A stretch of 64,000 nucleotides of DNA from Escherichia coli (GTDB taxonomy: Bacteria > Pseudomonadota > Gammaproteobacteria > Enterobacterales > Enterobacteriaceae). The stretch is from assembly GCF_044647545.1 (NCBI RefSeq), contig NZ_CP172818.1. One strand, 5' to 3'. Position 1 is the first letter of the stretch, and every line of letters begins with the position of its first letter. The notes under the pieces were generated by a model. That model saw only the letters and a list, made by a program, of their open reading frames with translations. It did not search any database and was not told where the DNA came from. The translations under genes were made by a program, and so were the position numbers. Positions 5,899 through 64,000 of the stretch are shown one piece after another.

Positions 5899-6627
5899 TC
5901 ATTCATAATGTGTTTTCACCGTTCGCTTAGGCATAAACTGCCGGAACAGTTCCCTGCTCTTTAATGGTTTACCGCCAAGATACGGCTTAAGCGCCATGCG
6001 GGTAAAGCGTTTCGCGGCGCGCAGTGTGTCTGCGTCAGGAAATTCCCGCGCGTTTAACGCTTTTAACTGCCTTCCGGTGAACGTTTTATTGTCGATAACG
6101 ACGCTTGCGATAAACCCTTTTTCTTCGCGATAACGATACGTCATGGTGTCATCTACCGGCTCGCCGCTACCCGCACAATGGGTAAAATTGACGCCATAGC
6201 CCAGATGCCCGAGCAGTGCCAGTTCAAAGCGGCGCAGCGCGGGTTCTGGCGTACCAGTGGCACCTGCAAGTGACTGAATGCAGTGCAAGTAATCGAAAAA
6301 GAGTTCAGAGAAGCGCGTCTCGTATTCCAGTACGCGGGAGAGAAGTTCGTTGATGTACAGACCGCTGTAAAGCGTGATACCGCTTAATGGCAGCGCCAGC
6401 GAGACGGCTTCAGCACTGCGCAGCGTTTTTACTTCGCCACGCCCGCCGAAACGTAGCAAGAGAGGGGTGAAAGGCTGTAATGCACCTTTCAGAGTAGAGC
6501 GTTTAGAGCGTGCGCCTTTGGCAACCAGACGCACGCGACCCGATTCCTCCGTGAAGACGTCCAGCATCAAGCTGGTTTCGCTCCACGGGCGACTATGCAG
6601 GACAAATGCGCGCTGCCAGCCTTCCAT
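5899..6627 (-). CDS. recO: DNA repair protein RecO
   Basis: Track ORF 242 aa beginning [19 protein letters not shown]. Confidence 0.9.
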
Positions 6628-6638
6628 CGGAGTTACTC

Positions 6639-8251
<1,613 letters not shown>

Positions 8252-9483: not shown

Positions 9484-11283
<1,800 letters not shown>

Positions 11284-11480
11284 AAAGTATGATTATTGTG
11301 CCTTAATGCCCGGTTAACCAGGCTTTTAGAAGTCGCTGTTCTGAGCTTAACGTCTGTATTAATAGAAACGCCGCATTCTACACTACAACATTGAGGCGAG
11401 GAAATGTTCATACCGTATGGATTGTGGTATCTGGAAACGTCCTCGCATTTGTTATGCAAAATGCAACAAAGCCAGTGAAA

Positions 11481-11960
11481 TCACTGGCTCGCGTCTTCCG
11501 AAGATGTTTCAAATCGCACAAGGCCAGGCGGCAATGCCACGCTTAAGATGATCGGTTGCCATTCAGACCGGGCAGCAAACTTTCGAGAGCAGCCACGTGC
11601 AATCAGGAATCCACCAACGCCACCGAGAATCGCACCGCATAATGCTGCAATATCTGAAGCAAAGAGTAGCTGAAATAGTGAAGCGATGAGGAATAGTCCC
11701 ACCAACGGCGACATATAAACCAGTAATGCGGAGCTAAGCAGGCTGCCTTCGGCGATTCCTAATTCTACTTTTTGCCCCGGCACTAACGGTTCTTCACAGG
11801 GTACGACAATGGTATGCGTGGTTTGCGGGCCAAGTTTATTCAACACGCGGCTACCGCAACCGGCGCGCGAAGCGCAGCTGCTGCATGAGGCTTTAACATC
11901 ACAACTAACCAGCGCCTGCCCGTTTTCCCAGGAGACGACGGTAGCCCACTCTTTGATCAT
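11481..11960 (-). CDS. rseC: Sigma-E regulatory protein RseC
   Basis: Track ORF 159 aa; last gene of the rpoE-rseABC cluster; 4-bp overlap with rseB. Confidence 0.85.
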   Translation of the reverse strand: MIKEWATVVSWENGQALVSCDVKASCSSCASRAGCGSRVLNKLGPQTTHTIVVPCEEPLVPGQKVELGIAEGSLLSSALLVYMSPLVGLFLIASLFQLLFASDIAALCGAILGGVGGFLIARGCSRKFAARSEWQPIILSVALPPGLVRFETSSEDASQ

Positions 11961-12913
11961 TGCGCTGCCCCGAACTTAATATTCTCGGCAATGCGTTTCG
12001 CCGTTTGCGGCGGCAGTTCACCGACAATGGTGATTTCGGCGTTATCACGTACGCTTGTACTGACGGTTCTGCGTCCGGTGCGCAACATCTGATCGGTGCT
12101 CGATGGCGTAGCGCGGTTAACGTTTACCGAGAAGCTGAATAATCCGTCGGAATAGAGACGTGATTCAATAGGCATGTTGTCCATCGTCGGTAGCGGACGT
12201 CGACTACTGGAAACTTCGCTAAAACCCTGTGGCAACCAGGTTGGCGTCCAGCTGAATTTAGCTTTTTCACCTACAGGAACAGAAAGCAACGGCGGCAAAT
12301 TTGCCTTCGCCAGCGTCTGCATACTGCTGCTGATATCCTGATTGACATTAAAAGCAATCACGCGAAATTGTTCCAGCGTTTCACCATCGCGATCAAGGAG
12401 ATCAACCCTCATCGGTAATTTCGATTCGGTGTCCATCCACACGATGTAGCTGTAGCGTGTACCATCTCGGGCAACCACGCGAATAACTTCGCAAAGACGA
12501 TCAGCAATACGCGTGCGCCCGACGGAGATAAAGTCGTAGTAAGGAGAAAGGCGTTTGAAATCGGTATAGATGAGCGATGGCAGAGAATCAACAATGTAAT
12601 CGCCATTAAGCGTGAACGGTTCAAGTCCCGGTTCAAAATAGCTGATCTCATTGCCGCGCTGTACCACTTCCCGGCGCGGGCCATCCATTTGCAACAATTG
12701 TGCAAGAGGACGGTTATCGAGGCGTGCATGTCGATAACGCAGAGACTCAACACCCTGTTTATTGATGCTGATGAATGACAGCTCGTAATTCAGTGACTGA
12801 CTGGCCAGGTTCATCTGCTGTAATAACGCCCCGGACGCGGGAGTGGCCGAGGCGTTAGCAGAGAATAACAGGCTACCTGTCACTAATGACATGGCAAACC
12901 AAAGTTGCTTCAT
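11957..12913 (-). CDS. rseB: Sigma-E regulatory protein RseB (periplasmic)
   Basis: Track ORF 318 aa with N-terminal signal peptide. Confidence 0.88.
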   Translation of the reverse strand: MKQLWFAMSLVTGSLLFSANASATPASGALLQQMNLASQSLNYELSFISINKQGVESLRYRHARLDNRPLAQLLQMDGPRREVVQRGNEISYFEPGLEPFTLNGDYIVDSLPSLIYTDFKRLSPYYDFISVGRTRIADRLCEVIRVVARDGTRYSYIVWMDTESKLPMRVDLLDRDGETLEQFRVIAFNVNQDISSSMQTLAKANLPPLLSVPVGEKAKFSWTPTWLPQGFSEVSSSRRPLPTMDNMPIESRLYSDGLFSFSVNVNRATPSSTDQMLRTGRRTVSTSVRDNAEITIVGELPPQTAKRIAENIKFGAAQ

Positions 12914-13563
12914 TACTGCGATTGCGTTCCTAAAGTTTGAATTCCTGGCACCTGTACAGCGGCTTGCTGGGTTTGCGCCTGCTCAAACTGAAGCTGTTCA
13001 GAGTGGAGTCGGCGTTGCAGTTCGTAATCCTGCAACATTGCATTAATGCGACGACGCTGCTCCTGTACCTGCTGCTGTTGACCATTGTTTGCGGTCGCTT
13101 CAGAAGGTACTCCCAGGCTTACCGGGCTGGCTTTACCCATCATCGGCAGTGTATTAAATACCGGCGTTTCGGGCTGCTGGGACGTTTCAGATTGTCCATT
13201 ATAGTGCTGGACGCCAACGATAACTGCAAGCGATACGCATGCGGCTACGCCCATTTGGGTAAGCTGTGCCGCCCACGGACGTACTTTCTGCCAGAATGGC
13301 ATTTTCTGCCATTGATGCGGCGCAGGCTGGGCTTCCGGGATCAATGTCGCCGGTTGACGTACTGGCTCTTCTTCAATGGCGGCCATCACTCGTGAAGAGA
13401 TATCGAAATGGAGCACCTCGGGAGTATCACCCCGCATTGAGTCACGGATTAAGTGATAGCTTTCCCAGGTTTTCTGCATTTCTGGGTTATGAGCCAGTTC
13501 GTTAAGCAGCTCACTATCCAGCGTTTCGCCATCCATTAAAGCGGAAAGTTGTTCTTTCTGCAT
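12913..13563 (-). CDS. rseA: Anti-sigma-E factor RseA
   Basis: Track ORF 12913..13599; product starting MQKEQLSALMDGE gives 216 aa; central transmembrane segment. Confidence 0.88.
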   Translation of the reverse strand: MQKEQLSALMDGETLDSELLNELAHNPEMQKTWESYHLIRDSMRGDTPEVLHFDISSRVMAAIEEEPVRQPATLIPEAQPAPHQWQKMPFWQKVRPWAAQLTQMGVAACVSLAVIVGVQHYNGQSETSQQPETPVFNTLPMMGKASPVSLGVPSEATANNGQQQQVQEQRRRINAMLQDYELQRRLHSEQLQFEQAQTQQAAVQVPGIQTLGTQSQ

Positions 13564-13595
13564 GCCTAATACCCTTATCCAGTATCCCGCTATCG

Positions 13596-14171
13596 TCAAC
13601 GCCTGATAAGCGGTTGAACTTTGTTATCAATAGCTTCCCTCGCTCGGAAGATACGTGAACGCACCGTACCTACCGGACAATCCATGATAGCGGCTATCTC
13701 TTCATAGCTCAGGCCATCCAGCTCCCGCAAGGTTATTGCCATGCGTAAATCTTCCGGGAGGGACTCAATAGTTCGGAAAACTATCTGTCTCAGTTCTTCT
13801 GACAACATTAAGTTCTCAGGGTTCGAAATTTCTTTCAACGCGCCGCCACTTTCGAAGTTTTCAGCTTCAATGGCATCCACATCACTGGAAGGTGGACGAC
13901 GCCCCTGAGCAACCAGGTAATTTTTCGCTGTATTTACAGCAATCCGATACAGCCATGTATAAAAAGCGCTATCTCCCCGGAACGAATCCAGCGCACGATA
14001 GGCTTTAATAAAAGCTTCTTGTACCACATCGGGAACATCACCCGACGGCACATAGCGGGAAACCAGACTCGCCACTTTATGCTGATAGCGCACTACCAGT
14101 AAGTTAAAGGCTTTCTGATCTCCCTTCTGGACCCGTTCAACCAGGACCTGGTCCGTTAACTGCTCGCTCAT
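13596..14171 (-). CDS. rpoE: ECF RNA polymerase sigma factor sigma-E
   Basis: Track ORF 13596..14204; product starting MSEQLTDQVLVERVQKGDQKAF gives 191 aa. Confidence 0.92.
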   Translation of the reverse strand: MSEQLTDQVLVERVQKGDQKAFNLLVVRYQHKVASLVSRYVPSGDVPDVVQEAFIKAYRALDSFRGDSAFYTWLYRIAVNTAKNYLVAQGRRPPSSDVDAIEAENFESGGALKEISNPENLMLSEELRQIVFRTIESLPEDLRMAITLRELDGLSYEEIAAIMDCPVGTVRSRIFRAREAIDNKVQPLIRR

Positions 14172-14253
14172 CCGAGGTAAAGTCTCCCCAAACCAAATTT
14201 CCACGCGCTATCGAAACGCCACTCCATTAGCTGCAATTTGAGCAAGCAAAGGG

Positions 14254-14281
14254 TTAGAGTGTCTCGTTTTTGTAAAGTTCC
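14254..14281 (-). promoter_or_regulatory. Sigma-E-type promoter upstream of rpoE (autoregulated)
   Basis: Minus strand reads GGAACTT, 16-nt spacer, TCTAA; matches sigma-E consensus GGAACTT / TCTGA; about 85 nt upstream of rpoE ATG. Confidence 0.5.
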
Positions 14282-14569
14282 GTAACGCATCTGTTTTTGT
14301 TTGTCATGCTGTAGACGGATCATTATCTATCATTATAAGTCTACAGAATCTGAACATCGCATTATCTGTGTAGAAATGCCCATTTAACTGCCTGAAGAGT
14401 AACCCAACGGCCTTTTTATTTCACCACCTAATCCTCCACCAGCCAGTAACTTCTCTTTTTCTCGCCGCCCTGCGTCAGCGTGTTTAGCAACTGTAACAAA
14501 TATTAAAATAGCAGGTGTTTATTCGCACAACATGATGCTATGCTGACCAAACCATGTTTAGTAAATTAA

Positions 14570-16923
<2,354 letters not shown>

Positions 16924-17054
16924 GAAAATAAAACCTTGCAGGAAAAACGGCGATAGCACCGGGTGAGAACAATACCCGAGAAGCGATATCCATACAAACA
17001 GATGAAGATTGCAGCCGTAACGTCTATAATCAGCGCCCCACACAGAGGTAGAAC

Positions 17055-18404
17055 ATGACTGTAACGACTTTTTCCGAACTTGAACTCGACGAAAGCCTGC
17101 TGGAAGCCCTCCAGGATAAAGGTTTCACTCGCCCGACCGCCATTCAGGCTGCCGCCATTCCGCCTGCGCTCGATGGCCGTGATGTACTCGGTTCTGCGCC
17201 GACAGGCACCGGTAAAACGGCGGCGTATCTGCTGCCAGCGTTGCAGCACCTGCTCGATTTCCCACGTAAGAAATCCGGTCCGCCGCGTATTTTGATCCTT
17301 ACCCCAACTCGCGAGCTGGCGATGCAGGTGGCCGATCATGCCCGCGAACTGGCGAAACATACGCATCTGGATATTGCCACCATCACCGGCGGCGTGGCCT
17401 ATATGAACCACGCAGAAGTGTTCAGCGAAAACCAGGACATTGTGGTCGCCACGACCGGACGTCTGCTGCAATACATAAAAGAAGAGAACTTCGATTGCCG
17501 CGCGGTTGAAACGCTGATCCTCGACGAAGCAGACCGTATGCTGGATATGGGCTTCGCTCAGGATATCGAACATATTGCTGGCGAAACGCGCTGGCGTAAA
17601 CAGACCCTGCTCTTTTCGGCAACGCTGGAAGGCGATGCGATTCAGGACTTTGCCGAGCGTCTGCTGGAAGATCCGGTGGAGGTTTCTGCCAATCCGTCCA
17701 CCCGTGAGCGCAAAAAAATTCATCAGTGGTATTACCGCGCCGATGACCTGGAACATAAAACCGCATTGCTGGTGCACCTGTTAAAACAGCCGGAAGCGAC
17801 CCGCTCAATTGTGTTTGTGCGTAAGCGTGAGCGTGTGCATGAGCTGGCAAACTGGCTGCGCGAAGCGGGCATCAACAACTGCTATCTCGAAGGTGAGATG
17901 GTACAGGGCAAGCGTAACGAAGCGATCAAGCGTTTGACCGAAGGTCGCGTAAACGTACTGGTTGCAACCGATGTTGCCGCGCGCGGTATCGACATTCCTG
18001 ACGTCAGCCACGTCTTTAACTTCGATATGCCGCGCAGTGGCGATACTTATTTGCACCGTATCGGACGTACCGCGCGCGCCGGTCGTAAAGGCACCGCAAT
18101 TTCGCTGGTAGAAGCCCATGACCATCTGCTGCTGGGCAAAGTTGGTCGCTATATTGAAGAGCCAATTAAAGCTCGTGTAATTGATGAGTTACGCCCGAAA
18201 ACGCGTGCGCCAAGCGAGAAGCAGACCGGCAAGCCATCGAAGAAAGTACTGGCAAAACGCGCCGAGAAGAAAAAAGCTAAAGAGAAAGAGAAGCCGCGGG
18301 TGAAAAAACGCCATCGCGACACCAAAAATATTGGTAAGCGCCGTAAACCGAGCGGAACGGGCGTGCCACCGCAAACGACAGAAGAGTATCAATGCCGGGT
18401 TTAA
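17055..18404 (+). CDS. srmB: DEAD-box ATP-dependent RNA helicase SrmB
   Basis: Track ORF 449 aa; motifs [20 protein letters not shown]; lysine-rich C-terminal tail. Confidence 0.93.
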
Positions 18405-18420
18405 GCCCGGCATTATTTTT
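18394..18420. terminator. Bidirectional terminator between srmB and yfiE
   Basis: Stem GCCGGG / CCCGGC with 5-nt loop followed by ATTATTTTTAT; overlaps srmB stop. Confidence 0.5.
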
Positions 18421-19300
18421 ATCCCGGCAAAAAACACTCTTCAACACACTGAATAAAAATGTGCATCGCCGGGCTAACCGCTTTTCCGGCATGGTGAGCG
18501 CACATTGCCGTAATCGTCTGCGACTGTTCGCCAAAAGGCAATTCGATTAATTCGCCACTCGCAAGTTCATTTGCCACTGTAAAGCGCGGCAGGTAACTGA
18601 CCCCGATATTTGCCGCGACACAACGCTTGATGCTTTCGATACTTATAAGCTCAATGGTGTTTTCCACCGTGATCCGTCGCTGGCGCAGCGTGCTCTCAAA
18701 TATCTGGCGGAAGACACATTGCGGTTCATTGATAATAAAACTACAGGCGTTATGTCTTCCCTGCTCAGTAAAATCGACATCTGCAATTTGCGGTGAAGCC
18801 ACCAGCACCAGCGATTGTTCACCCAACTCTCGCCGGTTCAGAGCATTATCATTCCCTACGCGATAAAAAACCCCGACATCGGCCTCATCATTCAGTAGCG
18901 CATCACGGATCACGTAACAGTTCAGAGACTGCAACGATAAACGCACTTTTGGTGCGCGTTGCCGAAAACGCTGCAACACCTGCGGCATTCGGTAAGAGAG
19001 CAACGTTTCGCCTGAAACAACGCGTAGTTCCCCGTCCGGATCCGACTCTTTTTTGGCAGCCTCACGAAGGGTATCCATCACTCTGGTGAGTTCATAAATG
19101 TGCGGCAGCAGCTTTTTTCCTTCGCGGGTAAGGCACATTCGTCGACCAATTTTCTCAAATAACTGGACTGAGAACTCCTGCTCAAGCTGCTGAATATGAA
19201 AAGTCACCGTCGATTGTGTACAGCACAATTTTTGCGAAGCTCGCAAAAAGGAACCCTCTTCCACCACGGTTTTAAGTGTAATAAAACGGCGCAGATCCAT
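18419..19300 (-). CDS. yfiE: LysR-family transcriptional regulator
   Basis: Track ORF 18419..19345; internal Met at 19300 gives 293 aa; N-terminal HTH plus substrate-binding domain. Confidence 0.8.
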   Translation of the reverse strand: MDLRRFITLKTVVEEGSFLRASQKLCCTQSTVTFHIQQLEQEFSVQLFEKIGRRMCLTREGKKLLPHIYELTRVMDTLREAAKKESDPDGELRVVSGETLLSYRMPQVLQRFRQRAPKVRLSLQSLNCYVIRDALLNDEADVGVFYRVGNDNALNRRELGEQSLVLVASPQIADVDFTEQGRHNACSFIINEPQCVFRQIFESTLRQRRITVENTIELISIESIKRCVAANIGVSYLPRFTVANELASGELIELPFGEQSQTITAMCAHHAGKAVSPAMHIFIQCVEECFLPG

Positions 19301-19402
19301 AACCCCAAACCTATCGAAAATATCGAATTTAGAATGTAAAAACATTCATTTTTTTAAATGTTCCGTGTCGGGTACTGTCTACCAAAACAGAGGAGATAAC
19401 AA

Positions 19403-19990
19403 GTGACACCGACCCTTTTAAGTGCTTTTTGGACTTACACCCTGATTACCGCCATGACGCCAGGACCGAACAATATTCTCGCCCTTAGCTCAGCTACAAC
19501 GCACGGATTTCGTCAGAGTACTCGCGTGCTGGCAGGGATGAGTCTGGGATTTTTAATCGTCATGTTGCTATGCGCGGGAATTTCGTTTTCACTGGCTGTT
19601 ATCGACCCGGCAGCAGTGCATCTGTTGAGTTGGGCGGGGGCGGCATATATTGTCTGGCTGGCGTGGAAAATCGCTACCAGTCCAACAAAGGAAGATGGGC
19701 TTCAGGCAAAACCAATCAGTTTTTGGGCCAGCTTTGCTTTGCAGTTTGTGAACGTCAAAATCATTTTGTATGGCATTACAGCACTGTCGACGTTTGTCCT
19801 GCCGCAAACGCAGGCGCTAAGCTGGATAATTGGCGTCAGCGTTTTGCTGGCGATGATTGGGACGTTTGGCAATGTGTGCTGGGCGCTGGCGGGGCACCTG
19901 TTTCAGCGATTGTTTCGCCAGTATGGTCGCCAGTTAAATATCGTGCTCGCGCTGCTGCTGGTCTATTGCGCGGTACGCATTTTCTATTAA
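19403..19990 (+). CDS. eamB: LysE/RhtB-family cysteine/O-acetylserine exporter
   Basis: Track ORF 195 aa, polytopic membrane protein. Confidence 0.85.
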   Translation: MTPTLLSAFWTYTLITAMTPGPNNILALSSATTHGFRQSTRVLAGMSLGFLIVMLLCAGISFSLAVIDPAAVHLLSWAGAAYIVWLAWKIATSPTKEDGLQAKPISFWASFALQFVNVKIILYGITALSTFVLPQTQALSWIIGVSVLLAMIGTFGNVCWALAGHLFQRLFRQYGRQLNIVLALLLVYCAVRIFY

Positions 19991-19992
19991 TG

Positions 19993-20024
19993 AAAAAAGC
20001 GGAAGAGGTCGCCCTCTTCCGCTT
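19993..20024. terminator. Bidirectional terminator between eamB and grcA
   Basis: 10-bp perfect stem GCGGAAGAGG / CCTCTTCCGC, 4-nt loop, A-run upstream (T-run on minus strand). Confidence 0.7.
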
Positions 20025-20044
20025 AGTAACTTGCTACTTAAGCC

Positions 20045-20428
20045 TTACAGGCTTTCAGTAAAGGTACGAGCGATAACGTCGCGCTGCTGTTCCGGAGTCA
20101 GAGAGTTAAAGCGAACTGCATAACCGGATACACGGATGGTCAGCTGCGGATATTTTTCCGGATGCTTAACTGCATCTTCCAGAGTTTCACGACGCAGAAC
20201 GTTTACGTTCAGGTGTTGACCACCTTCAACGCGAACTTCTGGTTTCACTTCTACTGGAACTTCACGGTACTCAATGTCACCCAGTTTGCTTACTGCAACC
20301 ACTTCGTCTTCTGCAAAACCTGCTTTCGCAACGATGCAACGCGCTTCGCCTTTTTCGCTGTCCAGCAGCCAGAAAGAGTTCAGCAGATCGTCGTTAGCGG
20401 CTTTAGTAATCTGGATACCTGTAATCAT
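20045..20428 (-). CDS. grcA: Autonomous glycyl radical cofactor GrcA
   Basis: Track ORF 20045..20446; product starting [20 protein letters not shown] gives 127 aa; glycyl radical motif RVSGYAV. Confidence 0.92.
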
Positions 20429-20535
20429 GTGATGCCTCCCCGGCAAAATTATTTGATTTGTTCAGCCTGTCGCGGCCAATTGGTAAAACCATTGTTGCTT
20501 GAGTGTATATATACTCCTCAAACACCCTTGAATCT

Positions 20536-20549
20536 TTGATTTAAATCAA
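20536..20549 (-). promoter_or_regulatory. FNR binding site (promoter-proximal) upstream of grcA
   Basis: Perfect FNR consensus TTGAT-TTAA-ATCAA. Confidence 0.65.
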
Positions 20550-20588
20550 TAAAAACCACACATCAAGTATGGTCGCAAATGGATTTTA

Positions 20589-20602
20589 TTGTTTTACATC
20601 AA
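20589..20602 (-). promoter_or_regulatory. Second FNR-like site upstream of grcA
   Basis: TTGTT-TTAC-ATCAA, one mismatch to consensus; centre is 53 bp from the first site. Confidence 0.5.
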
Positions 20603-20732
20603 CTTATGCAGGTGTGAAATTTTACCAATTTACATTTTTTTGCACTCGTTTAAGTCTAAAAAATGAGCATGATTTTGTTCTGTAGAAAGAAGCAGTTAAG
20701 CTAGGCGGATTGAAGATTCGCGGGAGAGCGAG

Positions 20733-21422
20733 ATGGCAAACGAATTAACCTGGCATGACGTGCTGGCTGAAGAGAAGCAACAACCCTATTTTCTTAATAC
20801 CCTACAGACCGTCGCCAGCGAGCGGCAGTCCGGCGTCACTATCTATCCGCCACAAAAGGATGTCTTTAACGCGTTCCGCTTTACAGAGTTGGGTGACGTT
20901 AAAGTGGTGATTCTCGGCCAGGATCCTTATCACGGACCGGGACAGGCGCATGGTCTGGCATTTTCCGTTCGCCCCGGCATTGCGACACCGCCGTCACTGC
21001 TGAATATGTATAAAGAGCTGGAAAATACTATTCCCGGTTTCACCCGCCCTAATCATGGTTATCTTGAAAGCTGGGCGCGTCAGGGCGTTCTGCTACTCAA
21101 TACTGTGTTGACGGTTCGCGCAGGTCAGGCGCATTCCCACGCTAGCCTCGGCTGGGAGACGTTTACTGATAAAGTCATCAGCCTGATTAACCAGCATCGC
21201 GAAGGCGTGGTGTTTTTGTTGTGGGGATCGCATGCGCAAAAGAAAGGGGCGATTATAGATAAGCAACGCCATCATGTACTGAAAGCACCGCATCCGTCGC
21301 CGCTTTCGGCGCATCGTGGATTCTTTGGCTGCAACCATTTTGTGCTGGCAAATCAGTGGCTGGAACAACGTGGCGAGACGCCGATTGACTGGATGCCAGT
21401 ATTACCGGCAGAGAGTGAGTAA
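20733..21422 (+). CDS. ung: Uracil-DNA glycosylase
   Basis: Track ORF 229 aa; motifs GQDPYH and HPSPLS. Confidence 0.95.
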
Positions 21423-21469
21423 ATTTGCGGGAAAATGCCGGATGGCAGAGTTGCCACCCGGCTGATTTA

Positions 21470-22507
21470 TCAGGCTTTATTCTGACGCCACCATTCGCCA
21501 AGAAGAACGCCGGTTGCGACAGAGATATTCAGCCCGGCAACGTTGCCAGTACCATCAATCTTCACGCGCAGATCGTTCGGATCGCGTGCGGCATCCGGTA
21601 ACCCTTCATATTCCTGACCCAGCACCAGTACCATTTTCGCTGGCAGACTGGTTTTGAACAGCGGTTTACCCTGCTCGCTGGAAGTTGTCACTACGGTGTA
21701 ACCCGCCTGACGGAAATCATCCAGCACGTTAACAATGTTGTCGCCAGTAATCGGCTGAACGTGCTCTGCGCCGCCTTCTGCGGTACGGATAGCCGCCCCA
21801 GACTCCAGCAGTGCTGCATCCTGCACCACAACACCTTTCACGCCGAAGTGCGCACAGCTACGCATCATGCCGCCCAGGTTATGCGGGTTAGATTCGTTTT
21901 CCAGGGCCAGTACACAATCCTGCGCGCCAGCCTGGCTTACCCACTGCTGCACGGTTGTACCGTTACGCTTTTTGATCAGGAAGCAAACGCCGCCGTGATG
22001 TTCCGTGCCTGACGCTTTTGTCAGTTCCGCTTCATCCACCACATGGTACGCTTTGCGGTTTGCCGCCATCCAGCGCAAGGCTTCTTTAAAACGTGGCGTT
22101 ACGCTCTGGATAAACCAGGCGCGAACAATCGCTTCCGGACGGCTCTGGAACAGTGCCTGACAGGCGTTTTCTCCGTAGACGCGGGTTTCTTCCGCACGCT
22201 GACGACGCAAAACTTCCGGATCAATAAAACTTTTACCACTGATGCCACCGTGATCGGCCTTTTCCGGCGTCTCATCACCCGGCGCGCGGGAAACTGTGCG
22301 CCACGGCGACTCTTCCCACTTGCGGTCACGGGGCTGACTCTGTTTGTCATCGCGGGCGGGGCGACGGCCACCGTCAGCACGAGATTTTCCTGGACGCCCG
22401 CCCCCTTTCCCGGTACGCGGGTTGTGGGTACGTTTATCAGAATCATCATCACTGCGGACATACATCACTTTGACCTTGCCGCTTTTACCTTTCATTTCAT
22501 CGTTCAT
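21470..22507 (-). CDS. yfiF: SpoU/TrmH-family RNA 2'-O-methyltransferase
   Basis: Track ORF 21470..22582; internal Met at 22507 gives 345 aa; basic Gly/Arg-rich N-terminal region and C-terminal SpoU-type domain. Confidence 0.8.
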
Positions 22508-58077: not shown

Positions 58078-58543
58078 TGTAAACCTCTTTCGCACGAACC
58101 GTAAAAGCCTGGACCATATTAGCCGCCAGCTCTTTAAACACGCGACCAAAGGCGAGTTCAATCAACTTATTGGTAAACTCAAAGTCGAGATGAAACTCGA
58201 TACGACACGCCTCCTGGCTCAGCGGCGTAAACTTCCATCCACCGATCAATTTCTTGAACGGCCCATCCACCAGATTCATAAGAATACTTTGGTTACTGGT
58301 CAACTGGTTGCGGGTAGTAAACGTTTTGCTGATCCCAGCCTTAGAGACATCTACCGCCGCAGTCATCTGCCCAGGAGTGGACTCCAGAATCCGACTTCCG
58401 GTACAACCCGGCAAAAACTGAGGATAAGACTGAACGTCATTCACTAACTGATACATTTGCTCCGCGCTGTAGGGTACCAGTGCGGTCCGGCTAATCTGAG
58501 GCATAACAATTTCCATCAACAAAAATCCAACAAATAATATCAT
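58067..58543 (-). CDS. ratA: Ribosome association toxin RatA (SRPBCC fold)
   Basis: Track ORF 158 aa; start could instead be the internal MPQISRT Met. Confidence 0.8.
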
Positions 58544-58674
58544 TTATCCTGCTGTAAAAAAAACGCTATCCCGGCGCTGGGTAACATCGGGTTCATGCTA
58601 AGATAGAGCCTTGTCCCCCGCAGGATTGATATGGGGTGTTTTCGATTTCAGATTACCGATGATTCACGACGCTT

Positions 58675-59157
58675 ATGACGAAGAAAAAAGCACATAAACC
58701 TGGTTCAGCGACCATCGCGCTTAACAAGCGCGCCCGGCACGAATACTTTATCGAAGAAGAGTTCGAGGCGGGACTTGCCCTGCAAGGCTGGGAGGTTAAA
58801 TCCCTGCGCGCAGGAAAAGCCAATATCAGCGACAGCTACGTCCTTCTGCGTGACGGAGAGGCATTTCTGTTTGGCGCTAACATCACGCCAATGGCTGTGG
58901 CCTCCACGCATGTGGTGTGCGATCCTACCCGTACCCGCAAGTTACTTCTCAACCAGCGCGAACTGGACTCATTGTACGGTCGCGTCAATCGAGAAGGCTA
59001 TACCGTAGTGGCGCTCTCCCTGTACTGGAAAAATGCCTGGTGCAAAGTGAAAATCGGCGTCGCCAAAGGTAAGAAACAGCATGATAAACGTTCAGATATC
59101 AAAGAACGCGAATGGCAGGTGGATAAAGCGCGTATCATGAAAAACGCCCACCGTTAA
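58675..59157 (+). CDS. smpB: SsrA-binding protein SmpB
   Basis: Track ORF 160 aa. Confidence 0.95.
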
Positions 59158-59371
59158 ACCTGCACTGCAATTATTGATCCGCTCCTCACCGCGCCTCCCT
59201 CTCCGGCGGCGCGAATGCACATCTTATTGGCTATCACATCCGACCCAAATGTTGCCATCCCATTGCTTAATCGAATAAAAATCAGGCTACATGGGTGCTA
59301 AATCTTTAACGATAACGCCATTGAGGCTGGTCATGGCACTCATGAATCTGGTATACTTACCGTTACACATT

Positions 59372-59734
59372 GGGGCTGATTCTGGATTCGACGGGATTTG
59401 CGAAACCCAAGGTGCATGCCGAGGGGCGGTTGGCCTCGTAAAAAGCCGCAAAAAATAGTCGCAAACGACGAAAACTACGCTTTAGCAGCTTAATAACCTG
59501 CTTAGAGCCCTCTCTCCCTAGCCTCCGCTCTTAGGACGGGGATCAAGAGAGGTCAAACCCAAAAGAGATCGCGTGGAAGCCCTGCCTGGGGTTGAAGCGT
59601 TAAAACTTAATCAGGCTAGTTTGTTAGTGGCGTGTCCGTCCGCAGCTGGCAAGCGAATGTAAAGACTGACTAAGCATGTAGTACCGAGGACGTAGGAATT
59701 TCGGACGCGGGTTCAACTCCCGCCAGCTCCACCA
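59372..59734 (+). ncRNA. ssrA: Transfer-messenger RNA (tmRNA)
   Basis: 363 nt from GGGGCTGATTCTGGATTCGACGGG to GGGTTCAACTCCCGCCAGCTCCACCA; internal frame GCAAACGACGAAAACTACGCTTTAGCAGCTTAA encodes tag ANDENYALAA; TATACT -10-like hexamer upstream. Confidence 0.97.
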
Positions 59735-59781
59735 AAATTCTCCATCGGTGATTACCAGAGTCATCCGATGAAGTCCTAAGA

Positions 59782-59813
59782 GCCCGCACGGCGCAAGCCC
59801 TGCGGGCTTTTTT
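59782..59813 (+). terminator. Rho-independent terminator after ssrA
   Basis: Stem AAGCCC / GGGCTT with 3-nt loop (within a larger GCCCGCA / TGCGGGC repeat) followed by TTTTT. Confidence 0.65.
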
Positions 59814-59868
59814 GTGCCCTCAATTTGTCCCGCGAAGTCCGAAGAGAACTAATTAAATCCGAACCTTT

Positions 59869-59919
59869 TAGGCCCATTGATAGGCCCAACGAAAAGCTCT
59901 ATTGTTTACGTTGGGCCTA
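59869..59919 (+). promoter_or_regulatory. Repeat cluster upstream of intA (candidate Int/regulator binding sites)
   Basis: Two direct copies of TAGGCCCA (59869, 59881) and a perfect 10-bp inverted repeat TAGGCCCAAC...GTTGGGCCTA (59881..59890 and 59910..59919), 19-57 bp upstream of intA ATG. Confidence 0.4.
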
Positions 59920-59937
59920 AACGCAGGGAGACTCCCC

Positions 59938-61179
59938 ATGGCAAGAAAAACCAAGCCGTTAACTGATACGGAAATCAAAGCCGCCAAACCTAAAGATGCC
60001 GATTACCAGCTTTATGACGGTGACGGGCTTACTCTGTTAATCAAGTCCAGTGGCAGTAAGCTTTGGCAATTCCGTTACTATCGGCCTTTGACCAAGCAGC
60101 GAACCAAACAGAGCTTCGGTGCCTATCCTGCCGTCTCGCTTTCTGATGCACGTAAACTCAGAGCCGAATCTAAAGTTTTATTGGCGAAAGACATTGATCC
60201 TCAGGAACATCAGAAAGAACAGGTGAGGAATTCTCAAGAGGCCAAAACCAATACCTTCTTGTTAGTTGCCGAGCGTTGGTGGAATGTGAAGAAAACCAGC
60301 GTAACAGAGGACTATGCCGACGATATCTGGCGCTCGCTTGAGAGAGATATTTTCCCGGCAATCGGTGATATCAGTATCACTGAGATTAAGGCTCATACTC
60401 TGGTTAAAGCAGTTCAGCCGGTTCAGGCCAGAGGTGCATTAGAGACTGTTCGCCGCCTTTGTCAGCGTATTAACGAAGTCATGATTTATGCGCAGAACAC
60501 AGGCCTGATTGATGCTGTTCCTAGTGTAAATATCGGAAAAGCTTTCGAGAAACCGCAAAAGAAAAACATGCCAAGCATCCGGCCGGATCAACTTCCGCAG
60601 CTAATGCACACCATGCGTACGGCAAGTATCAGCATGTCCACAAGATGCCTGTTCATGTGGCAACTTCTAACCATCACCCGCCCTGCCGAAGCTGCTGAGG
60701 CTCGATGGGATGAGATCGATTTCAATGCTAGCGAATGGAAAATTCCTGCAGCTCGAATGAAGATGAACCGGGACCATACGGTTCCACTATCTGATGGGGC
60801 TCTTGCTATTCTGGAAATGATGAAGCCTCTCAGTGGTGGCCGAGAATTTATCTTTCCTAGCCGTATCAAGCCCAACCAACCAATGAATAGCCAAACAGTG
60901 AATGCAGCACTCAAGCGTGCTGGCTTAGGAGGTGTACTTGTTTCACACGGCTTGCGTTCTATCGCCAGTACGGCACTCAATGAGGAAGGATTTCCACCTG
61001 ATGTCATTGAAGCAGCGCTTGCTCATGTAGACAAAAATGAGGTGCGTCGCGCTTATAACCGCAGTGATTATCTTGAGCAACGTCGTCCGATGATGCAATG
61101 GTGGGCTGATCTCGTAAAAGCAGCAGATAGTGGTAGCATCGTTTTAACTCATTTGAGCAAAATTCGTCTTGTCGGATAA
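59938..61179 (+). CDS. intA: Tyrosine-type prophage integrase
   Basis: Track ORF 59902..61179; ATG at 59938 preceded by GGGAG gives 413 aa; catalytic-region motifs HGLRS and RAYNRSDY. Confidence 0.92.
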   Translation: MARKTKPLTDTEIKAAKPKDADYQLYDGDGLTLLIKSSGSKLWQFRYYRPLTKQRTKQSFGAYPAVSLSDARKLRAESKVLLAKDIDPQEHQKEQVRNSQEAKTNTFLLVAERWWNVKKTSVTEDYADDIWRSLERDIFPAIGDISITEIKAHTLVKAVQPVQARGALETVRRLCQRINEVMIYAQNTGLIDAVPSVNIGKAFEKPQKKNMPSIRPDQLPQLMHTMRTASISMSTRCLFMWQLLTITRPAEAAEARWDEIDFNASEWKIPAARMKMNRDHTVPLSDGALAILEMMKPLSGGREFIFPSRIKPNQPMNSQTVNAALKRAGLGGVLVSHGLRSIASTALNEEGFPPDVIEAALAHVDKNEVRRAYNRSDYLEQRRPMMQWWADLVKAADSGSIVLTHLSKIRLVG

Positions 61180-61186
61180 AATATTT

Positions 61187-61216
61187 ATCAGCCCAGCTCT
61201 CTGGGCTGATATTTCT
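61187..61216 (+). terminator. Stem-loop terminator after intA
   Basis: Perfect 10-bp stem ATCAGCCCAG / CTGGGCTGAT with 4-nt loop, AT-rich flanks, 8 nt past intA stop. Confidence 0.6.
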
Positions 61217-61304
61217 AAAAGATCGCACTAAATAGCTACGCGGAATAGTGCTCTACTTTCGTTTAGCCCTTTCAGAGGTAAGACATTAGGGCAATTTCAC
61301 TGTA

Positions 61305-61318
61305 TGACTGCGCAGTCA
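61305..61318. repeat. Perfect 14-bp palindrome TGACTGCGCAGTCA
   Basis: Self-complementary 14-mer in the intA-yfjH intergenic region; possible operator or part of the yfjH 3' structure. Confidence 0.4.
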
Positions 61319-61422
61319 TCGAGTCTGTGGGGTGTTGCTCCTTTTGCAACGTATCACTTGTCAATAAATAGAAAGTGTAGATGTATTAGGCGCAGCTATT
61401 TAGTCTATATGGCAAGTAGTAA

Positions 61423-62379
61423 TTATTTACTTCTTTTTTTTCTACGAACAGCGCTATCGAAAGCTTGTTTTACATCTTCATTTTTTAAAGACCATTGATT
61501 TAAAATAGTATCAACCAAAGCATCTTGACTCATTGTTGCTACACGATATTTTTTATTTTGATTATTTATCTCAAACTCTGACATTTGAATAAAATCCCAT
61601 AGCGGTTCGATAAGTTCATTAACTGCTACAACCTTATTTTTCCACCCATCATTCGGAACAGAGTCATTAATTAGCTCAACCAACTTCAGTTGAATGATAT
61701 GGTACACTTCCGCTTTGCTTTTGCCACCCTTCTTTCCTGCACTCCGCCTGACTTCTGATAATTTTTTTTGATTACAAACAGAGATGTTAAACCAAGTCAT
61801 ACCTATGCACTTATCAAATAACTCCGCAGCCCGATGAAATGCTTTAAAGGCAACGTTTTCATTTTCAGACATGATAGATTTTCCCCAGAAAAAAGAGATT
61901 GAGGCGAACATAAGGTGTGCCTTGAAAATGTCATTAATGGAAAATGGCTCGATAACAAGAGGTAAAAACGTTTCCTTGGTAAGGTTTGAACTTAGATTTT
62001 TCCAGCATTCTTGAGCTGGATCATATAATTCAGTGTATTCTTCCTTTATCTCCAGTTGCCCATTCACTGTATGGTGCCTTGTTTCCCATGGTACATCGCA
62101 GGAATATAACCTCACACGAGTACCTATTTTCTCAGAGCTCCAGAATTGCTCTCGCATTCTGCCTAGCTCAATCCGTATTTCCGGATGATCTTCCTCTAGA
62201 ACATCAGTATCCACCGCCCATTCGCATTCGGACATGTGATAGGCGAGATCACGTCGTTTTCTACAAATTTGTTCATAAAAATCATTCAGAGAAATCATAA
62301 AACCACCATAAATCAATGTATTAGAGGTTGTAAAAATTGTATTTTTGGTACATGGGTTTTTTGCCTTAAAGATACCCAT
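61423..62379 (-). CDS. yfjH: Uncharacterized prophage protein, AT-rich orphan gene adjacent to integrase
   Basis: Track ORF 61423..62499; internal Met at 62379 gives 318 aa and avoids overlap with alpA; strongly AT-rich; no motif I can assign. Confidence 0.6.
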   Translation of the reverse strand: MGIFKAKNPCTKNTIFTTSNTLIYGGFMISLNDFYEQICRKRRDLAYHMSECEWAVDTDVLEEDHPEIRIELGRMREQFWSSEKIGTRVRLYSCDVPWETRHHTVNGQLEIKEEYTELYDPAQECWKNLSSNLTKETFLPLVIEPFSINDIFKAHLMFASISFFWGKSIMSENENVAFKAFHRAAELFDKCIGMTWFNISVCNQKKLSEVRRSAGKKGGKSKAEVYHIIQLKLVELINDSVPNDGWKNKVVAVNELIEPLWDFIQMSEFEINNQNKKYRVATMSQDALVDTILNQWSLKNEDVKQAFDSAVRRKKRSK

Positions 62380-62422
62380 TAATCTCTCTGCAACCAAAGT
62401 GAACCAATGAGAGGCAACAAGA

Positions 62423-62635
62423 ATGAACAATCGATCGGCCGTTAGAATACTACGGTTACCAGCGGTTATCCAAAAAACAGGTATGGCACGGGCCACCATC
62501 TATGACTGGTTGAACCCCAAATCACCACGATACGATGCCACCTTTCCCAAAAAGCGAATGCTCGGCGTGAAATCTGTCGGATGGATTGAGGCCGAGATTG
62601 ATGAGTGGTTATCACAACGCTGTAAACTTATTTGA
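62423..62635 (+). CDS. alpA: AlpA-family prophage transcriptional regulator / excisionase-like protein
   Basis: Track ORF 70 aa beginning MNNRSAVRILRLPAVIQKTGMARATIYDW; GAGG ribosome-binding site upstream. Confidence 0.85.
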   Translation: MNNRSAVRILRLPAVIQKTGMARATIYDWLNPKSPRYDATFPKKRMLGVKSVGWIEAEIDEWLSQRCKLI

Positions 62636-62763
62636 GGGTGTTACATGAATTCATACTCAATTGCTGTCATCGGAGTGTAAACATCCTGCTATTTCCGCCA
62701 TTAATAGCGGAATAGCCATATTTGCTAAACAATTTCTTAATTTAATTAAATAAGAGGCATTGC

Positions 62764-64000
62764 ATGTTCAATGGTCGTCCTTTCCCTGTAGATGCATTTC
62801 CTAAAATTATCAGGAATGCAATTTATGAAGTGGAACAGCATACGCAGGCCCCTCAAGGTTTGATTGCTGCTTCTGCTCTTGGGGTAATTTCTCTTGCCTG
62901 TCAGAACCGGATTGATGTTTGCCGATTGAATAATCTACGTGGCCCGGTATCACTTTTCTTAATGACTCTGGCTGAATCAGGTGAACGTAAGAGTACGGTT
63001 GATAAACTGCTGATGAAGCCATTATATCAACTGGAAGAGGATTTATTTGAAAAATACACCCACGATCTTACCGCATGGAGAAATGATGAAGCAATTTTTA
63101 ATATTGAAAAAAAAGCACTGATGTCAAAACTTAAATCAGATATTCGACGTAACAAAGATCACTTGGCAACAAATGAAAGACTTAAAGAACTACTTACGAC
63201 AAACCCGAAAGCTCCAGTGAGATTCAAATTTTTATTTAACGATGCCACACCTGCAGCTATTAAAGCTCATCTCTGTGGGCACTGGCGATCAGTCGGCATC
63301 ATGTCTGATGAAGCTGGGATCATTTTTAATGGTTACACACTTAACGAGCTGCCGTTTATCAATAAGATGTGGGATGGTTCAATATTTACGGTGGAAAGGA
63401 AAAACGAGCCCGAGAAATTAATTAGAGATGCAAGAATAACACTGTCGCTGATGGTCCAGCCTAATGTTTTTAAGGGTTATATCGACAGGAAAGGAGATAT
63501 GGCAAAGGGGATTGGATTTTTTGCACGGTGCCTCATGTGCCAGCCTGCTTCAACACAAGGTAACAGAAAAATTTCCAACCCAATTTTTTCAAATGAACAT
63601 TTGCCGGTATTTCACCAACGTCTTATGGAAATTGTTAATGAGAGCATCATTAAAATTAATGAAAATAATCGCATCTGCCTCCGATTCTCTGCAGAAGCAG
63701 AAAGACATTGGATCGAATTCTACAACCAGGTCGAGTCAGAAATGAGAATGATTGGCCTTCTTTATGATTTTAAGGATTATGCTTCTAAAATGGCGGAGAA
63801 CATGGCGAGGCTTGCTGCCTTACTTCATTACTTCAGCGGTGATGGAGGCGATATATCTGTTACCGCAGTAAAAGCAGCAGTGGAGATAGTGGCTTGGTAT
63901 ATTGAAGAATACATCCGCTTGTTCTCTAAAAAAGAAGAGTTTTCTTTAGATGTTTCAGAAGCAGATGAGCTTTATTGTTGGATAAAAGATTACTGCACGC
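62764..64000 (+). CDS. yfjI: Uncharacterized prophage protein (DUF3987-like by recollection), 3' end beyond window
   Basis: Hand translation from ATG 62764 (AGAGG 7 nt upstream) is open to the window end (412 codons) beginning MFNGRPFPVDAFPKIIRNAIYEVEQHTQAPQGL; absent from ORF track because no stop lies in the window. Confidence 0.7.
   Translation, partial: MFNGRPFPVDAFPKIIRNAIYEVEQHTQAPQGLIAASALGVISLACQNRIDVCRLNNLRGPVSLFLMTLAESGERKSTVDKLLMKPLYQLEEDLFEKYTHDLTAWRNDEAIFNIEKKALMSKLKSDIRRNKDHLATNERLKELLTTNPKAPVRFKFLFNDATPAAIKAHLCGHWRSVGIMSDEAGIIFNGYTLNELPFINKMWDGSIFTVERKNEPEKLIRDARITLSLMVQPNVFKGYIDRKGDMAKGIGFFARCLMCQPASTQGNRKISNPIFSNEHLPVFHQRLMEIVNESIIKINENNRICLRFSAEAERHWIEFYNQVESEMRMIGLLYDFKDYASKMAENMARLAALLHYFSGDGGDISVTAVKAAVEIVAWYIEEYIRLFSKKEEFSLDVSEADELYCWIKDYCT

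What the first reader, a model, noticed from the sequence alone, without database searches (positions are those of the whole stretch)
61423..62379. yfjH: AT-rich orphan gene in the integrase-proximal cargo position
The 318-aa ORF is oppositely oriented to intA and alpA, has markedly lower GC than neighbours, and carries no motif I can recognise. Integrase-adjacent variable slots in P2/P4-family elements are known to carry anti-phage or other accessory cargo, so this is the best candidate for something undescribed. The evidence is positional and compositional only.
Basis: inference. Interest (0 to 1): 0.5.

Follow-up and report, generated by a model that had tools for sequence, protein, structure and literature searches.

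The report
yfjH: conserved island backbone gene
yfjH is a real but uncharacterised gene that always sits between the integrase and the alpA switch gene in a family of enterobacterial genomic islands, so it is probably part of the island's own excision and activation machinery and not swappable anti-phage cargo.

Summary
The window is E. coli K-12, with the order ssrA, intA, yfjH, alpA, yfjI (the CP4-57 island). The ORF is real and AT-rich (37% GC, against 47-48% for intA and alpA). It is under purifying selection, with dN/dS 0.19-0.27. It has no match in Pfam, NCBIfam or PADLOC and no relative of its fold in the PDB. The annotated 318-aa start is probably 27 codons too long, and homologues support a 291-aa protein starting at 62298.

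The gene is not an orphan. It belongs to PHROG 19089, and a profile search found 93 representative clusters, mainly from Enterobacterales.

It is not variable cargo either. In the roughly two dozen related loci examined, a YfjH-family gene lies between a P4-type integrase and an alpA plus replication module. The variable defence cargo (AbpAB/RnlAB, Qat, helicases, ABC-3C) lies elsewhere. The K-12 allele is only 57-60% identical to alleles in islands whose integrase is 94-97% identical.

The best reading, which is inferred and not shown, is an accessory or regulator of the Int/AlpA excision switch that binds DNA through a conserved basic C-terminal helical domain. The closest known analogue by position is the iolg/icg slot of PICMI satellites, but I found no homology to the PICMI115 IOLG protein. 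Interest is modest.

The parts
61423..62298 (-). yfjH coding sequence with the revised start (291 aa). It has an acidic, variable N-terminal part (aa 1-115), a long helical hairpin, and a basic conserved C-terminal helical domain (aa 181-291).
   Evidence: ORF. PHROG 19089 matches aa 28-318 of the annotated form at E 1.4e-112. Homologues of 291-292 aa begin at this Met. dN/dS is 0.19-0.27. AF2 models. Charge analysis.
62299..62379 (-). The annotated 27-codon N-terminal extension of yfjH. It is probably not translated and instead holds the promoter and leader.
   Evidence: The ATG at 62379 is not conserved in alignment A3, whereas the ATG at 62298 is invariant. A sigma-70-like site (TTTACA, 18 nt spacer, TATGGT) lies at 62334-62305 on the minus strand. 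A GGTGG Shine-Dalgarno-like motif sits 4 nt upstream of the 62298 ATG.
62299..62422 (.). The 124-bp divergent control region between yfjH and alpA. It is better conserved than the yfjH coding sequence.
   Evidence: Mean column identity is 82% across K-12, three other E. coli, Mangrovibacter, Yersinia and one metagenome. Invariant blocks include TGTAAAAA..TTTTGGTA, a T6 run (TTTTTT), CCAAA and GAGGCA; a -10-like TAATCT is conserved in five of the seven. The TGTAA..TTTTTG block is partly kept in relatives at 24-37% identity (L013, L014).
62423..62635 (+). alpA, the AlpA-family regulator and excision factor. It is the constant neighbour of the YfjH family.
   Evidence: Pfam PF05930 is present on the neighbouring gene in related loci.
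59938..61179 (+). intA, the P4-type tyrosine integrase. It is the other constant neighbour.
   Evidence: It is 94-97% identical in islands whose YfjH is only 57-60% identical.
59372..59734 (+). ssrA (tmRNA), the integration site of the island.
   Evidence: Rfam RF00023, 292.8 bits.
61186..61211 (.). A perfect 11-bp inverted repeat followed by T or A runs on both strands. It is a likely bidirectional terminator shared by the convergent genes intA and yfjH.
61227..61404 (.). A 178-bp MITE-like insertion with 34-nt imperfect terminal inverted repeats in the yfjH 3' region. It accounts for the 243-bp int-yfjH spacer, which is 58-76 bp in most related islands.
   Evidence: Inverted repeat I1. The RNA fold has z = -5.1. 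107 other E. coli records hold matches at 60-80% identity (two listed: 72%), at least one of them at an unrelated locus.
62764..64000 (+). yfjI (DUF3987, primase/helicase-like), cut by the window end. It is the first gene of the replication module that follows alpA.
   Evidence: PF13148 in related loci.

Best explanation
YfjH is a core backbone protein of CP4-57-type integrative islands. These islands carry a P4-type integrase, AlpA, a DUF3987 or other replication gene, and an inovirus-Gp2-like Rep protein.

I propose that YfjH is an accessory or regulator of the Int/AlpA excision and activation switch and is not cargo. In this model it is a helical protein, probably dimeric, that contacts island DNA through its conserved, positively charged C-terminal domain (aa 181-291). 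The DNA contacted would be the conserved 124-bp yfjH-alpA control region and/or the att sites. The faster-evolving acidic N-terminal part would set partner specificity. YfjH would then either hold alpA off in the quiescent island or act with Int and AlpA during excision.

What is shown: the conserved position, the conserved partners, purifying selection, the conserved intergenic DNA and the basic C-terminal domain. What is inferred: DNA binding, dimerisation and any effect on alpA or on excision.
For: 1. The YfjH-family gene lies between int and the alpA-replication module in every locus with enough flanking sequence. These are K-12; six other E. coli islands; Mangrovibacter, Yersinia and metagenomes; and Citrobacter, Siccibacter and Photorhabdus. 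Relatives at 20-37% identity show the same arrangement even where the integrase is only 32-33% identical and DUF3987 is replaced by other replication genes.
2. The gene is retained in a nearly cargo-free island, L011, which holds the core genes plus IS elements only.
3. The yfjH-alpA intergenic region is 82% conserved, while the proteins are only 57-60% identical.
4. The C-terminal region carries a net positive charge in all 38 members examined (median +8.5). The N-terminal part is acidic. The core model is confident and has a 67-residue helix typical of coiled-coil dimers.
5. The family is absent from 50,697 phage records and 72,556 plasmid records, so it is specific to chromosomal islands.
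6. There is a precedent. PICMI satellites have the order int, iolg/icg, alpA, primase. Their slot genes fall into 13 unrelated families of unknown function, and deletion of iolg in PICMI115 abolishes excision (PMC10803314).
7. No master repressor is known for Gram-negative islands controlled by AlpA (PMC6092414).
Against: - The only sequence hint is to the ribbon-helix-helix protein TraY at E = 0.021. The model contradicts it, because it shows a helix where the beta-strand should be.
- In the most distant members the gene runs in the same direction as int and converges on the alpA operon. The divergent-promoter arrangement is therefore not universal, and no shared operator motif was found there.
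- There is no homology to the IOLG protein of PICMI115.
- One related E. coli island (L012) has an unrelated 411-aa gene in the slot.
- The only published functional datum is of a different kind: overexpression blocks the retron-Sen2 toxin RcaT.
Confidence: 0.4

Rival explanations
1. One reading: yfjH is a single-gene anti-phage (or other accessory) cargo carried in a variable integrase-adjacent hotspot.
For: It lies next to a P4-type integrase, is AT-rich and has no known function. The island does carry defence genes (abpAB, rnlAB, a GmrSD fragment). Alleles diverge quickly (57-60% identity where Int is 94-97% identical), as expected under an arms race. Defence systems do sometimes insert on the integrase side of the slot gene (ABC-3C in L012 and L013).
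Against: The same family occupies the slot in nearly all related islands, while the cargo elsewhere changes. PADLOC finds no credible match for YfjH or nine diverse relatives. dN/dS of 0.19-0.27 indicates ordinary purifying selection. In the comparable PICMI satellites the defence hotspot lies elsewhere, between prim and fis.
Confidence: 0.12
2. YfjH is a counter-defence or toxin-neutralising protein. The island would carry it to neutralise retron-type or other abortive-infection toxins in the host.
For: yfjH was listed among the prophage-gene blockers of the retron-Sen2 toxin RcaT in an overexpression screen (bioRxiv 10.1101/2020.06.22.160242; repeated in PMC11951105).
Against: This is a single high-throughput overexpression hit. 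The text does not say that yfjH was among the 11 blockers that were re-validated. Other blockers in that screen include chaperones and proteases, so indirect effects are common. The library clones presumably encode the 318-aa annotated form. Strict linkage to int and alpA is not explained by an anti-retron role.
Confidence: 0.1
3. YfjH is an auxiliary DNA-processing protein for island replication or mobilisation. It would work with the Gp2-like rolling-circle initiator YfjJ and with YfjI at an origin in or near the conserved intergenic region, much as TraY or MobI assist relaxases.
For: A YagK/YfjJ (Gp2-like) gene is present in essentially every locus that holds a YfjH-family gene and has enough flanking sequence, including the distant ones. 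There is a weak profile match to the relaxosome protein TraY (E = 0.021). The C-terminal domain is basic.
Against: The TraY match is marginal, and the ribbon-helix-helix fold is not supported by the model. YfjJ identity varies from 38% to 96% independently of YfjH identity. No origin-like repeats were found in the 124-bp region.
Confidence: 0.15
4. YfjH has no current function in K-12 and is a decaying remnant of a cryptic element.
For: CP4-57 is regarded as cryptic. Deleting intA through ypjF did not change the proteome under the tested conditions (PMC10107115). One relative, in Photorhabdus, is disrupted by an IS element.
Against: The K-12 ORF is intact and full length relative to its homologues. 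The family is under purifying selection. In vitro transcription of yfjH by sigma-S RNA polymerase and a roughly 2-fold rise after acid shift have been reported.
Confidence: 0.05

Closest known systems
IOLG/ICG genes of PICMI satellites (int-overlapping or int-contiguous genes; Vibrionaceae; PMC10803314)
   Same: They lie between a tyrosine integrase and alpA in a small island that also carries a DUF3987/DUF5906 primase. Their function is unknown and they fall into many unrelated sequence families. They are conserved within a lineage, while defence cargo sits at another hotspot. Distant YfjH relatives (L029-L031) are contiguous and co-directional with int, exactly like icg.
   Different: There is no sequence homology to the IOLG of PICMI115: hmmsearch scores are near zero and hhalign probability is 0.2%. 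K-12 yfjH converges on int and diverges from alpA; it does not overlap int. It is 291 aa against 187 aa. A requirement for excision is shown for iolg but untested for yfjH.
Stl/Rpr master repressors of SaPIs and Gram-positive PICIs
   Same: Both are genes of similar size next to int and are transcribed divergently from the excision/replication operon across a short control region. Both diverge rapidly in sequence between related islands.
   Different: No helix-turn-helix or other DNA-binding domain is detectable. In YfjH the conserved part is C-terminal and the variable part N-terminal. The divergent arrangement is lost in distant members. Repression and phage-induced relief are untested.
Defence hotspots of P4-like satellites (between int and psu) and of P2 prophages
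   Same: Both involve a P4-type integrase next to AT-rich genes of unknown function, in an island rich in defence genes. This hotspot is cited in PMC10803314.
   Different: The slot here is not exchanged between related islands, and the occupant matches no defence model. The variable region is downstream of yfjJ.
RacC (Rac prophage), a small blocker of the retron toxin RcaT
   Same: Both were recovered as prophage-encoded RcaT blockers in the same screen.
   Different: RacC is 91 aa, was the strongest blocker, was followed up experimentally, and is linked to its trigger recE. YfjH is 291 aa, unrelated, not followed up in the text, and linked to int and alpA.

Membership tests
PHROG 19089 (unknown function) | Significant full-length match to the profile | tested here: met
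   E = 1.4e-112 over profile positions 1-291 of 292. Distant relatives also match at E 1e-14 to 1e-38.
Known anti-phage defence systems (PADLOC-DB v2) | Match to a defence-protein HMM | tested here: not met
   No families for YfjH at E up to 1. Nothing credible for nine diverse relatives.
Known anti-phage defence systems / hotspot cargo | Occupies a slot whose content is exchanged between otherwise related elements | tested here: not met
   The same family is in the slot in 6 of 7 non-K-12 E. coli islands and in all other genera sampled. The cargo differs downstream of yfjJ.
Known anti-phage defence systems / hotspot cargo | Confers phage resistance | not testable with these tools
   No published phenotype was found.
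PICMI IOLG/ICG slot genes | Located between int and alpA in an int-alpA-primase island | tested here: met
   the PICMI115 locus for comparison.
PICMI IOLG/ICG slot genes | Overlaps or is contiguous and co-directional with int | tested here: not met
   K-12 yfjH converges on intA with a 243-bp gap. The feature is met only in distant relatives L029-L031.
PICMI IOLG/ICG slot genes | Sequence homology to PICMI115 IOLG | tested here: not met
   hmmsearch scores were -0.6 and 0.4 bits, and hhalign probability was 0.2%. The paper itself groups iolg/icg into 13 unrelated families.
PICMI IOLG/ICG slot genes | Required for island excision | not testable with these tools
   This needs a yfjH deletion and an excision assay.
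Stl/Rpr-type island master repressor | Transcribed divergently from the excision/replication operon across a short control region | tested here: inconclusive
   True for the K-12-type subfamily, with gaps of 105-136 bp. Not true for the most distant members.
Stl/Rpr-type island master repressor | Recognisable DNA-binding domain (helix-turn-helix) | tested here: not met
Stl/Rpr-type island master repressor | Represses island genes and is relieved by a helper-phage protein | not testable with these tools
   No data. Literature states that a global repressor in Gram-negative PICIs is unclear.
Ribbon-helix-helix (TraY-like) DNA-binding proteins | Significant sequence match | tested here: inconclusive
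   The profile of the conserved core hits TraY repeat 2 at E = 0.021, 18 bits, over 52 residues.
Ribbon-helix-helix (TraY-like) DNA-binding proteins | Beta-strand, helix, helix fold | tested here: not met
   The high-confidence model has one continuous 67-residue helix across the position where the strand should be.

The most novel reading that the evidence does not exclude
The YfjH family is the missing resident control protein of AlpA-switched islands in Enterobacterales. It would be a structurally new DNA-binding repressor/sensor, or an obligatory excision cofactor. It would keep the island silent until a phage or stress signal acts on its fast-evolving N-terminal half. It would thus play the role that Stl plays in SaPIs, but with an unrelated fold.
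Probability: 0.2. Interest if true: 0.6.

Novelty: new member of a known kind. Interest (0 to 1): 0.35.

Why it matters
How AlpA-controlled islands and satellites of Gram-negative bacteria are kept silent and then switched on is still open. No master repressor is known for them (PMC6092414). The integrase-adjacent iolg/icg genes of PICMIs are needed for excision, but their function is unknown (PMC10803314).

yfjH is the E. coli K-12 occupant of that slot. The question can therefore be tested in the most tractable organism, using an existing AlpA-induced CP4-57 excision assay.

The practical results are as follows:
- The annotated start of a K-12 y-gene is probably wrong (291 aa, not 318 aa).
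- yfjH should not be treated as a candidate defence gene on positional grounds.
- In this island family the variable, defence-rich region lies downstream of yfjJ.

Tried and rejected
- **Domain and family scans.** Pfam, NCBIfam and PADLOC scans of YfjH, and Pfam on 48 relatives, found nothing.
- **Sequence searches of the PDB.** Full-length and N-terminal queries gave only chance-level hits. The conserved-core profile gave a marginal TraY hit, which I rejected because the model lacks the beta-strand.
- **Walker-A reading of GKKGGKS.** Rejected, because the spacing is wrong and the motif is not conserved in the family (alignments).
- **Homology to the PICMI115 IOLG.** I recovered the locus through its AlpA sequence. 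The result was negative.
- **Homology to the 411-aa slot gene of island L012.** Negative.
- **Shared operator motif.** I looked upstream of alpA and of yfjH-like genes in distant islands and found none.
- **Repeats in the 124-bp control region.** Only short, weak ones were found.
- **Phage and plasmid collections.** No homologue in either.
- **Rfam scan of 58500-64000.** Only tmRNA was found.
- **Locus searches that failed.** A viral-contig scan with the PICMI AlpA found nothing.
- **Paper not available.** Wang et al. 2009 on CP4-57 excision is not held.

Full report
**What is there**

The window end carries recN, bamE, ratA, smpB, ssrA, intA, yfjH, alpA and yfjI. It is 100% identical to E. 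coli K-12 MG1655, so this is the left end of the CP4-57 island integrated at ssrA.

On the minus strand an ORF ends at 61423. The annotated start at 62379 gives 318 aa, and the longest ORF (358 aa) would overlap alpA. yfjH is opposite in orientation to intA and alpA. Its GC content is 37.4%, against 47.6% for intA and 46.9% for alpA, although the next gene, yfjI, is just as AT-rich at 37.9%.

The gene is real. Close alleles differ with dN/dS of 0.19-0.27. The family is conserved over its full length. The conserved core gives a very confident AlphaFold model, with pLDDT 93.8 and pTM 0.75.

**Start codon**

PHROG 19089 aligns to residues 28-318 of the annotated protein, and most homologues are 291-292 aa and begin at the equivalent of Met28. 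In an alignment of the yfjH-alpA intergenic DNA from seven islands, the ATG at 62298 is invariant, while the annotated ATG at 62379 exists only in K-12. A GGTGG motif lies 4 nt upstream of 62298.

I therefore take the protein to be 291 aa (61423-62298). That leaves a 124-bp divergent control region, not the 43 bp implied by the annotation.

**Not an orphan**

The first search found 27 proteins. A profile search of 1.84 billion representative proteins found 93 clusters, of which 14 had E below 1e-30.

The named members come from Escherichia, Salmonella, Klebsiella, Citrobacter, Enterobacter, Raoultella, Yersinia, Serratia, Providencia, Proteus, Pantoea, Photorhabdus and Xenorhabdus. A few structure-level relatives come from Aeromonas and Burkholderiales. 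All are annotated as hypothetical.

The family is nevertheless rare. A pattern scan tuned to the close subfamily found 6 loci among 100,044 species-representative genomes, which is a lower bound. There is no match in 50,697 phage records or 72,556 plasmid records.

The K-12 allele itself occurs in 363 of 5,426 complete E. coli genomes, all at 99% identity or more. The rows listed are mostly K-12 or laboratory derivatives.

**Not variable cargo**

Every locus with enough flanking sequence shows the same backbone.
- In E. coli MS 115-1, 22AR0118, ABWA45, JX2, 23AR0806 and 2013C-4282 the order is ssrA, int, YfjH-family gene (minus strand), alpA, replication genes (yfjI in five of them; YagM/YagL in 2013C-4282) and a Gp2-like yfjJ. 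MS 115-1 has a second integrase-bearing prophage just upstream of int, and its ssrA is not in the stretch shown.
- The same order holds in Mangrovibacter plantisponsor, Yersinia and gut or environmental metagenomes.
- It also holds in Citrobacter youngae, Siccibacter colletis, an uncultured enterobacterium and Photorhabdus khanii, where flanking sequence is available. In Photorhabdus the gene is interrupted by an IS200/IS605 transposase.

What follows yfjJ differs from island to island:
- AbpAB, a GmrSD fragment and RnlAB in K-12;
- the Qat system in JX2;
- DEAD/DEAH helicases in 23AR0806 and in the metagenomic locus L007;
- BRO-N, a GIY-YIG nuclease and a helicase in 2013C-4282;
- a 467-aa hypothetical protein in MS 115-1 and Mangrovibacter;
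- only IS elements in ABWA45.

Defence genes can also sit on the integrase side of the slot gene. Examples are the ABC-3C systems in L012 and L013.

Only one sampled island, L012 (integrase 85% identical at the protein level), has an unrelated 411-aa gene facing an alpA-like gene.

The phenotype half of that criterion could not be tested.

**Linkage holds at long range, but the orientation does not**

Relatives at 20-37% identity still lie divergently next to an AlpA gene, with gaps of 105-119 bp. They usually lie next to a P4-type integrase that is only 32-33% identical to IntA. In these islands DUF3987 is replaced by UCP007319 plus HTH_7 genes (L013, L014/15, L016/17).

In the most distant members the order is int, then the yfjH-like gene in the same direction, then a Gp2-like rep gene and alpA on the opposite strand (L030/31 and L033; L029 has an unclassified 388-aa gene in the rep position). 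In L033 the upstream neighbour is an unidentified 757-aa protein, not a recognised integrase.

The constant feature is therefore a position between int and the alpA-replication module. A shared divergent promoter is not constant.

**Evolutionary pattern**

Against islands whose IntA is 94-97% identical and whose AlpA is 81-91% identical, YfjH is only 57-60% identical. The exception is the locus L022, where it is 47%. Within the protein, the N-terminal 115 residues are less conserved than the rest, at roughly 40-60% identity against roughly 51-71%.

Across the wider family only residues from about 116 to 291 align. The conserved motif is GGxxKAxxY...K.E...LL....P..GWKxK..A...I...L..FI ... WSRxD..VK.AF...V..KK.

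The 124-bp control region is more conserved than the gene, at 82% mean column identity, with invariant blocks.

**Structure and motifs**

The full-length model is mostly helical with a small beta-sheet at residues 61-91 (pLDDT 80). The core model (aa 116-291) is a helical hairpin containing a single 67-residue helix, followed by a small bundle of three helices and a beta-hairpin.

The C-terminal region from residue 181 carries a net positive charge in all 38 members examined, from +3 to +16 with a median of +8.5. The K-12 N-terminal part has a net charge of -9. This fits nucleic-acid binding but does not prove it.

A marginal profile hit to the second ribbon-helix-helix repeat of TraY (E = 0.021) is contradicted by the model. 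I treat it as a chance helix-loop-helix resemblance.

**Published information**

yfjH is listed among the poorly characterised genes of K-12. Four observations exist:
- It was preferentially transcribed by sigma-S RNA polymerase in vitro, as was the intergenic region downstream of it.
- It rose about 2-fold after an acid shift.
- It was listed among prophage-gene blockers of the retron-Sen2 toxin RcaT in an overexpression screen. The text does not say that it was individually re-validated.
- It accumulated three mutations in one long-term stationary-phase culture.

No defence phenotype has been reported.

Two papers frame the context. [quoted passage not shown] In the PICMI satellites of Vibrionaceae the order is int, iolg/icg, alpA, primase. 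The slot genes fall into 13 unrelated families of unknown function. Deleting iolg in PICMI115 abolishes excision. The defence hotspot lies elsewhere (PMC10803314).

I recovered the PICMI115 locus through its published AlpA sequence. Its 187-aa IOLG has no detectable homology to the YfjH family. The resemblance is therefore one of position and context only.

A recent study of tmRNA-integrated Pseudomonas islands with IntY, AlpA, a Gp2-like protein and RadC describes the same general class of defence-carrying island (PMC12595487).

**Interpretation**

The evidence shows that yfjH is a lineage-conserved backbone gene of an island family defined by a P4-type integrase, AlpA and a Gp2-like Rep protein.

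I infer, with confidence of about 0.4, that it is an accessory or regulator of the Int/AlpA switch that acts on island DNA through its basic C-terminal domain. It could repress alpA or act as an excision cofactor. The present data cannot separate these two versions.

The rivals are:
- an auxiliary factor for replication or mobilisation working with YfjJ (0.15);
- a blocker of retron or other toxins (0.10);
- a functionless remnant (0.05).

The remaining probability is for functions I have not thought of.

**Verdict**

The finding is of modest interest. Its value is that K-12 offers an easy test bed for the unexplained integrase-adjacent genes of AlpA-controlled islands. It also corrects the annotated start of a K-12 gene.

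Noticed in passing
window 61227-61404: A 178-bp MITE-like element with 34-nt imperfect terminal inverted repeats lies between intA and the yfjH stop codon. As RNA it folds far better than shuffled controls (z = -5.1). Apart from the K-12-type records at 99% or more, the spacer query finds 107 E. coli records with 60-80% matches, including one next to an ISEc1 transposase and an Rhs gene in strain D7. It explains the unusually long int-yfjH spacer and may correspond to the sigma-S-dependent 'intergenic region downstream of yfjH' transcript reported in PMC3141248.
   Followed up: partly
window 62299-62379: The RefSeq start of yfjH (318 aa) appears to be 27 codons too far upstream. The conserved start is at 62298 (291 aa). 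Overexpression libraries built on the annotation would carry an unnatural N-terminal extension.
   Followed up: yes
window 62305-62334 (minus strand): A sigma-70-like promoter (TTTACA, 18 nt spacer, TATGGT) ends only 6 nt before the conserved yfjH ATG. It would give a leaderless or near-leaderless mRNA, as for some phage repressor genes. The -35 hexamer is conserved in six of the seven aligned islands, but the -10 is not well conserved.
   Followed up: partly
L012 (E. coli CAVP773) 10368-18301: In an ssrA island whose integrase is 85% identical to IntA, the int-alpA interval holds IS2, a three-gene ABC-three-component defence system, ISSen4, a 'virulence factor' gene and an unrelated 411-aa hypothetical protein facing the alpA-like gene. 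The slot can therefore be occupied by another family, and cargo can insert on the integrase side.
   Followed up: partly
L023 (Photorhabdus khanii NC19) about 6000-7308: The yfjH homologue is split by an insertion that encodes an IS200/IS605-type TnpA. The two halves appear as separate 'uncharacterized proteins' in AFDB (W3VBW5 and W3VEF4).
   Followed up: partly
L004 and L005, 12484-20876: In two genomes a P2/186-like prophage (CI repressor, Fil, and in L005 the GpA replication protein) is integrated in tandem next to the island's integrase, where ssrA and smpB lie in the related locus L003.
   Followed up: no
L001 (K-12) 15931-21934, beyond the window end: The variable region after yfjJ in K-12 carries abpB/abpA (formerly yfjK/yfjL), a GmrSD-domain fragment (yfjM) and rnlAB. 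The equivalent position in other islands carries the Qat system, DEAD/DEAH helicases or BRO-N plus a GIY-YIG nuclease. This is the real cargo hotspot of the island family.
   Followed up: partly
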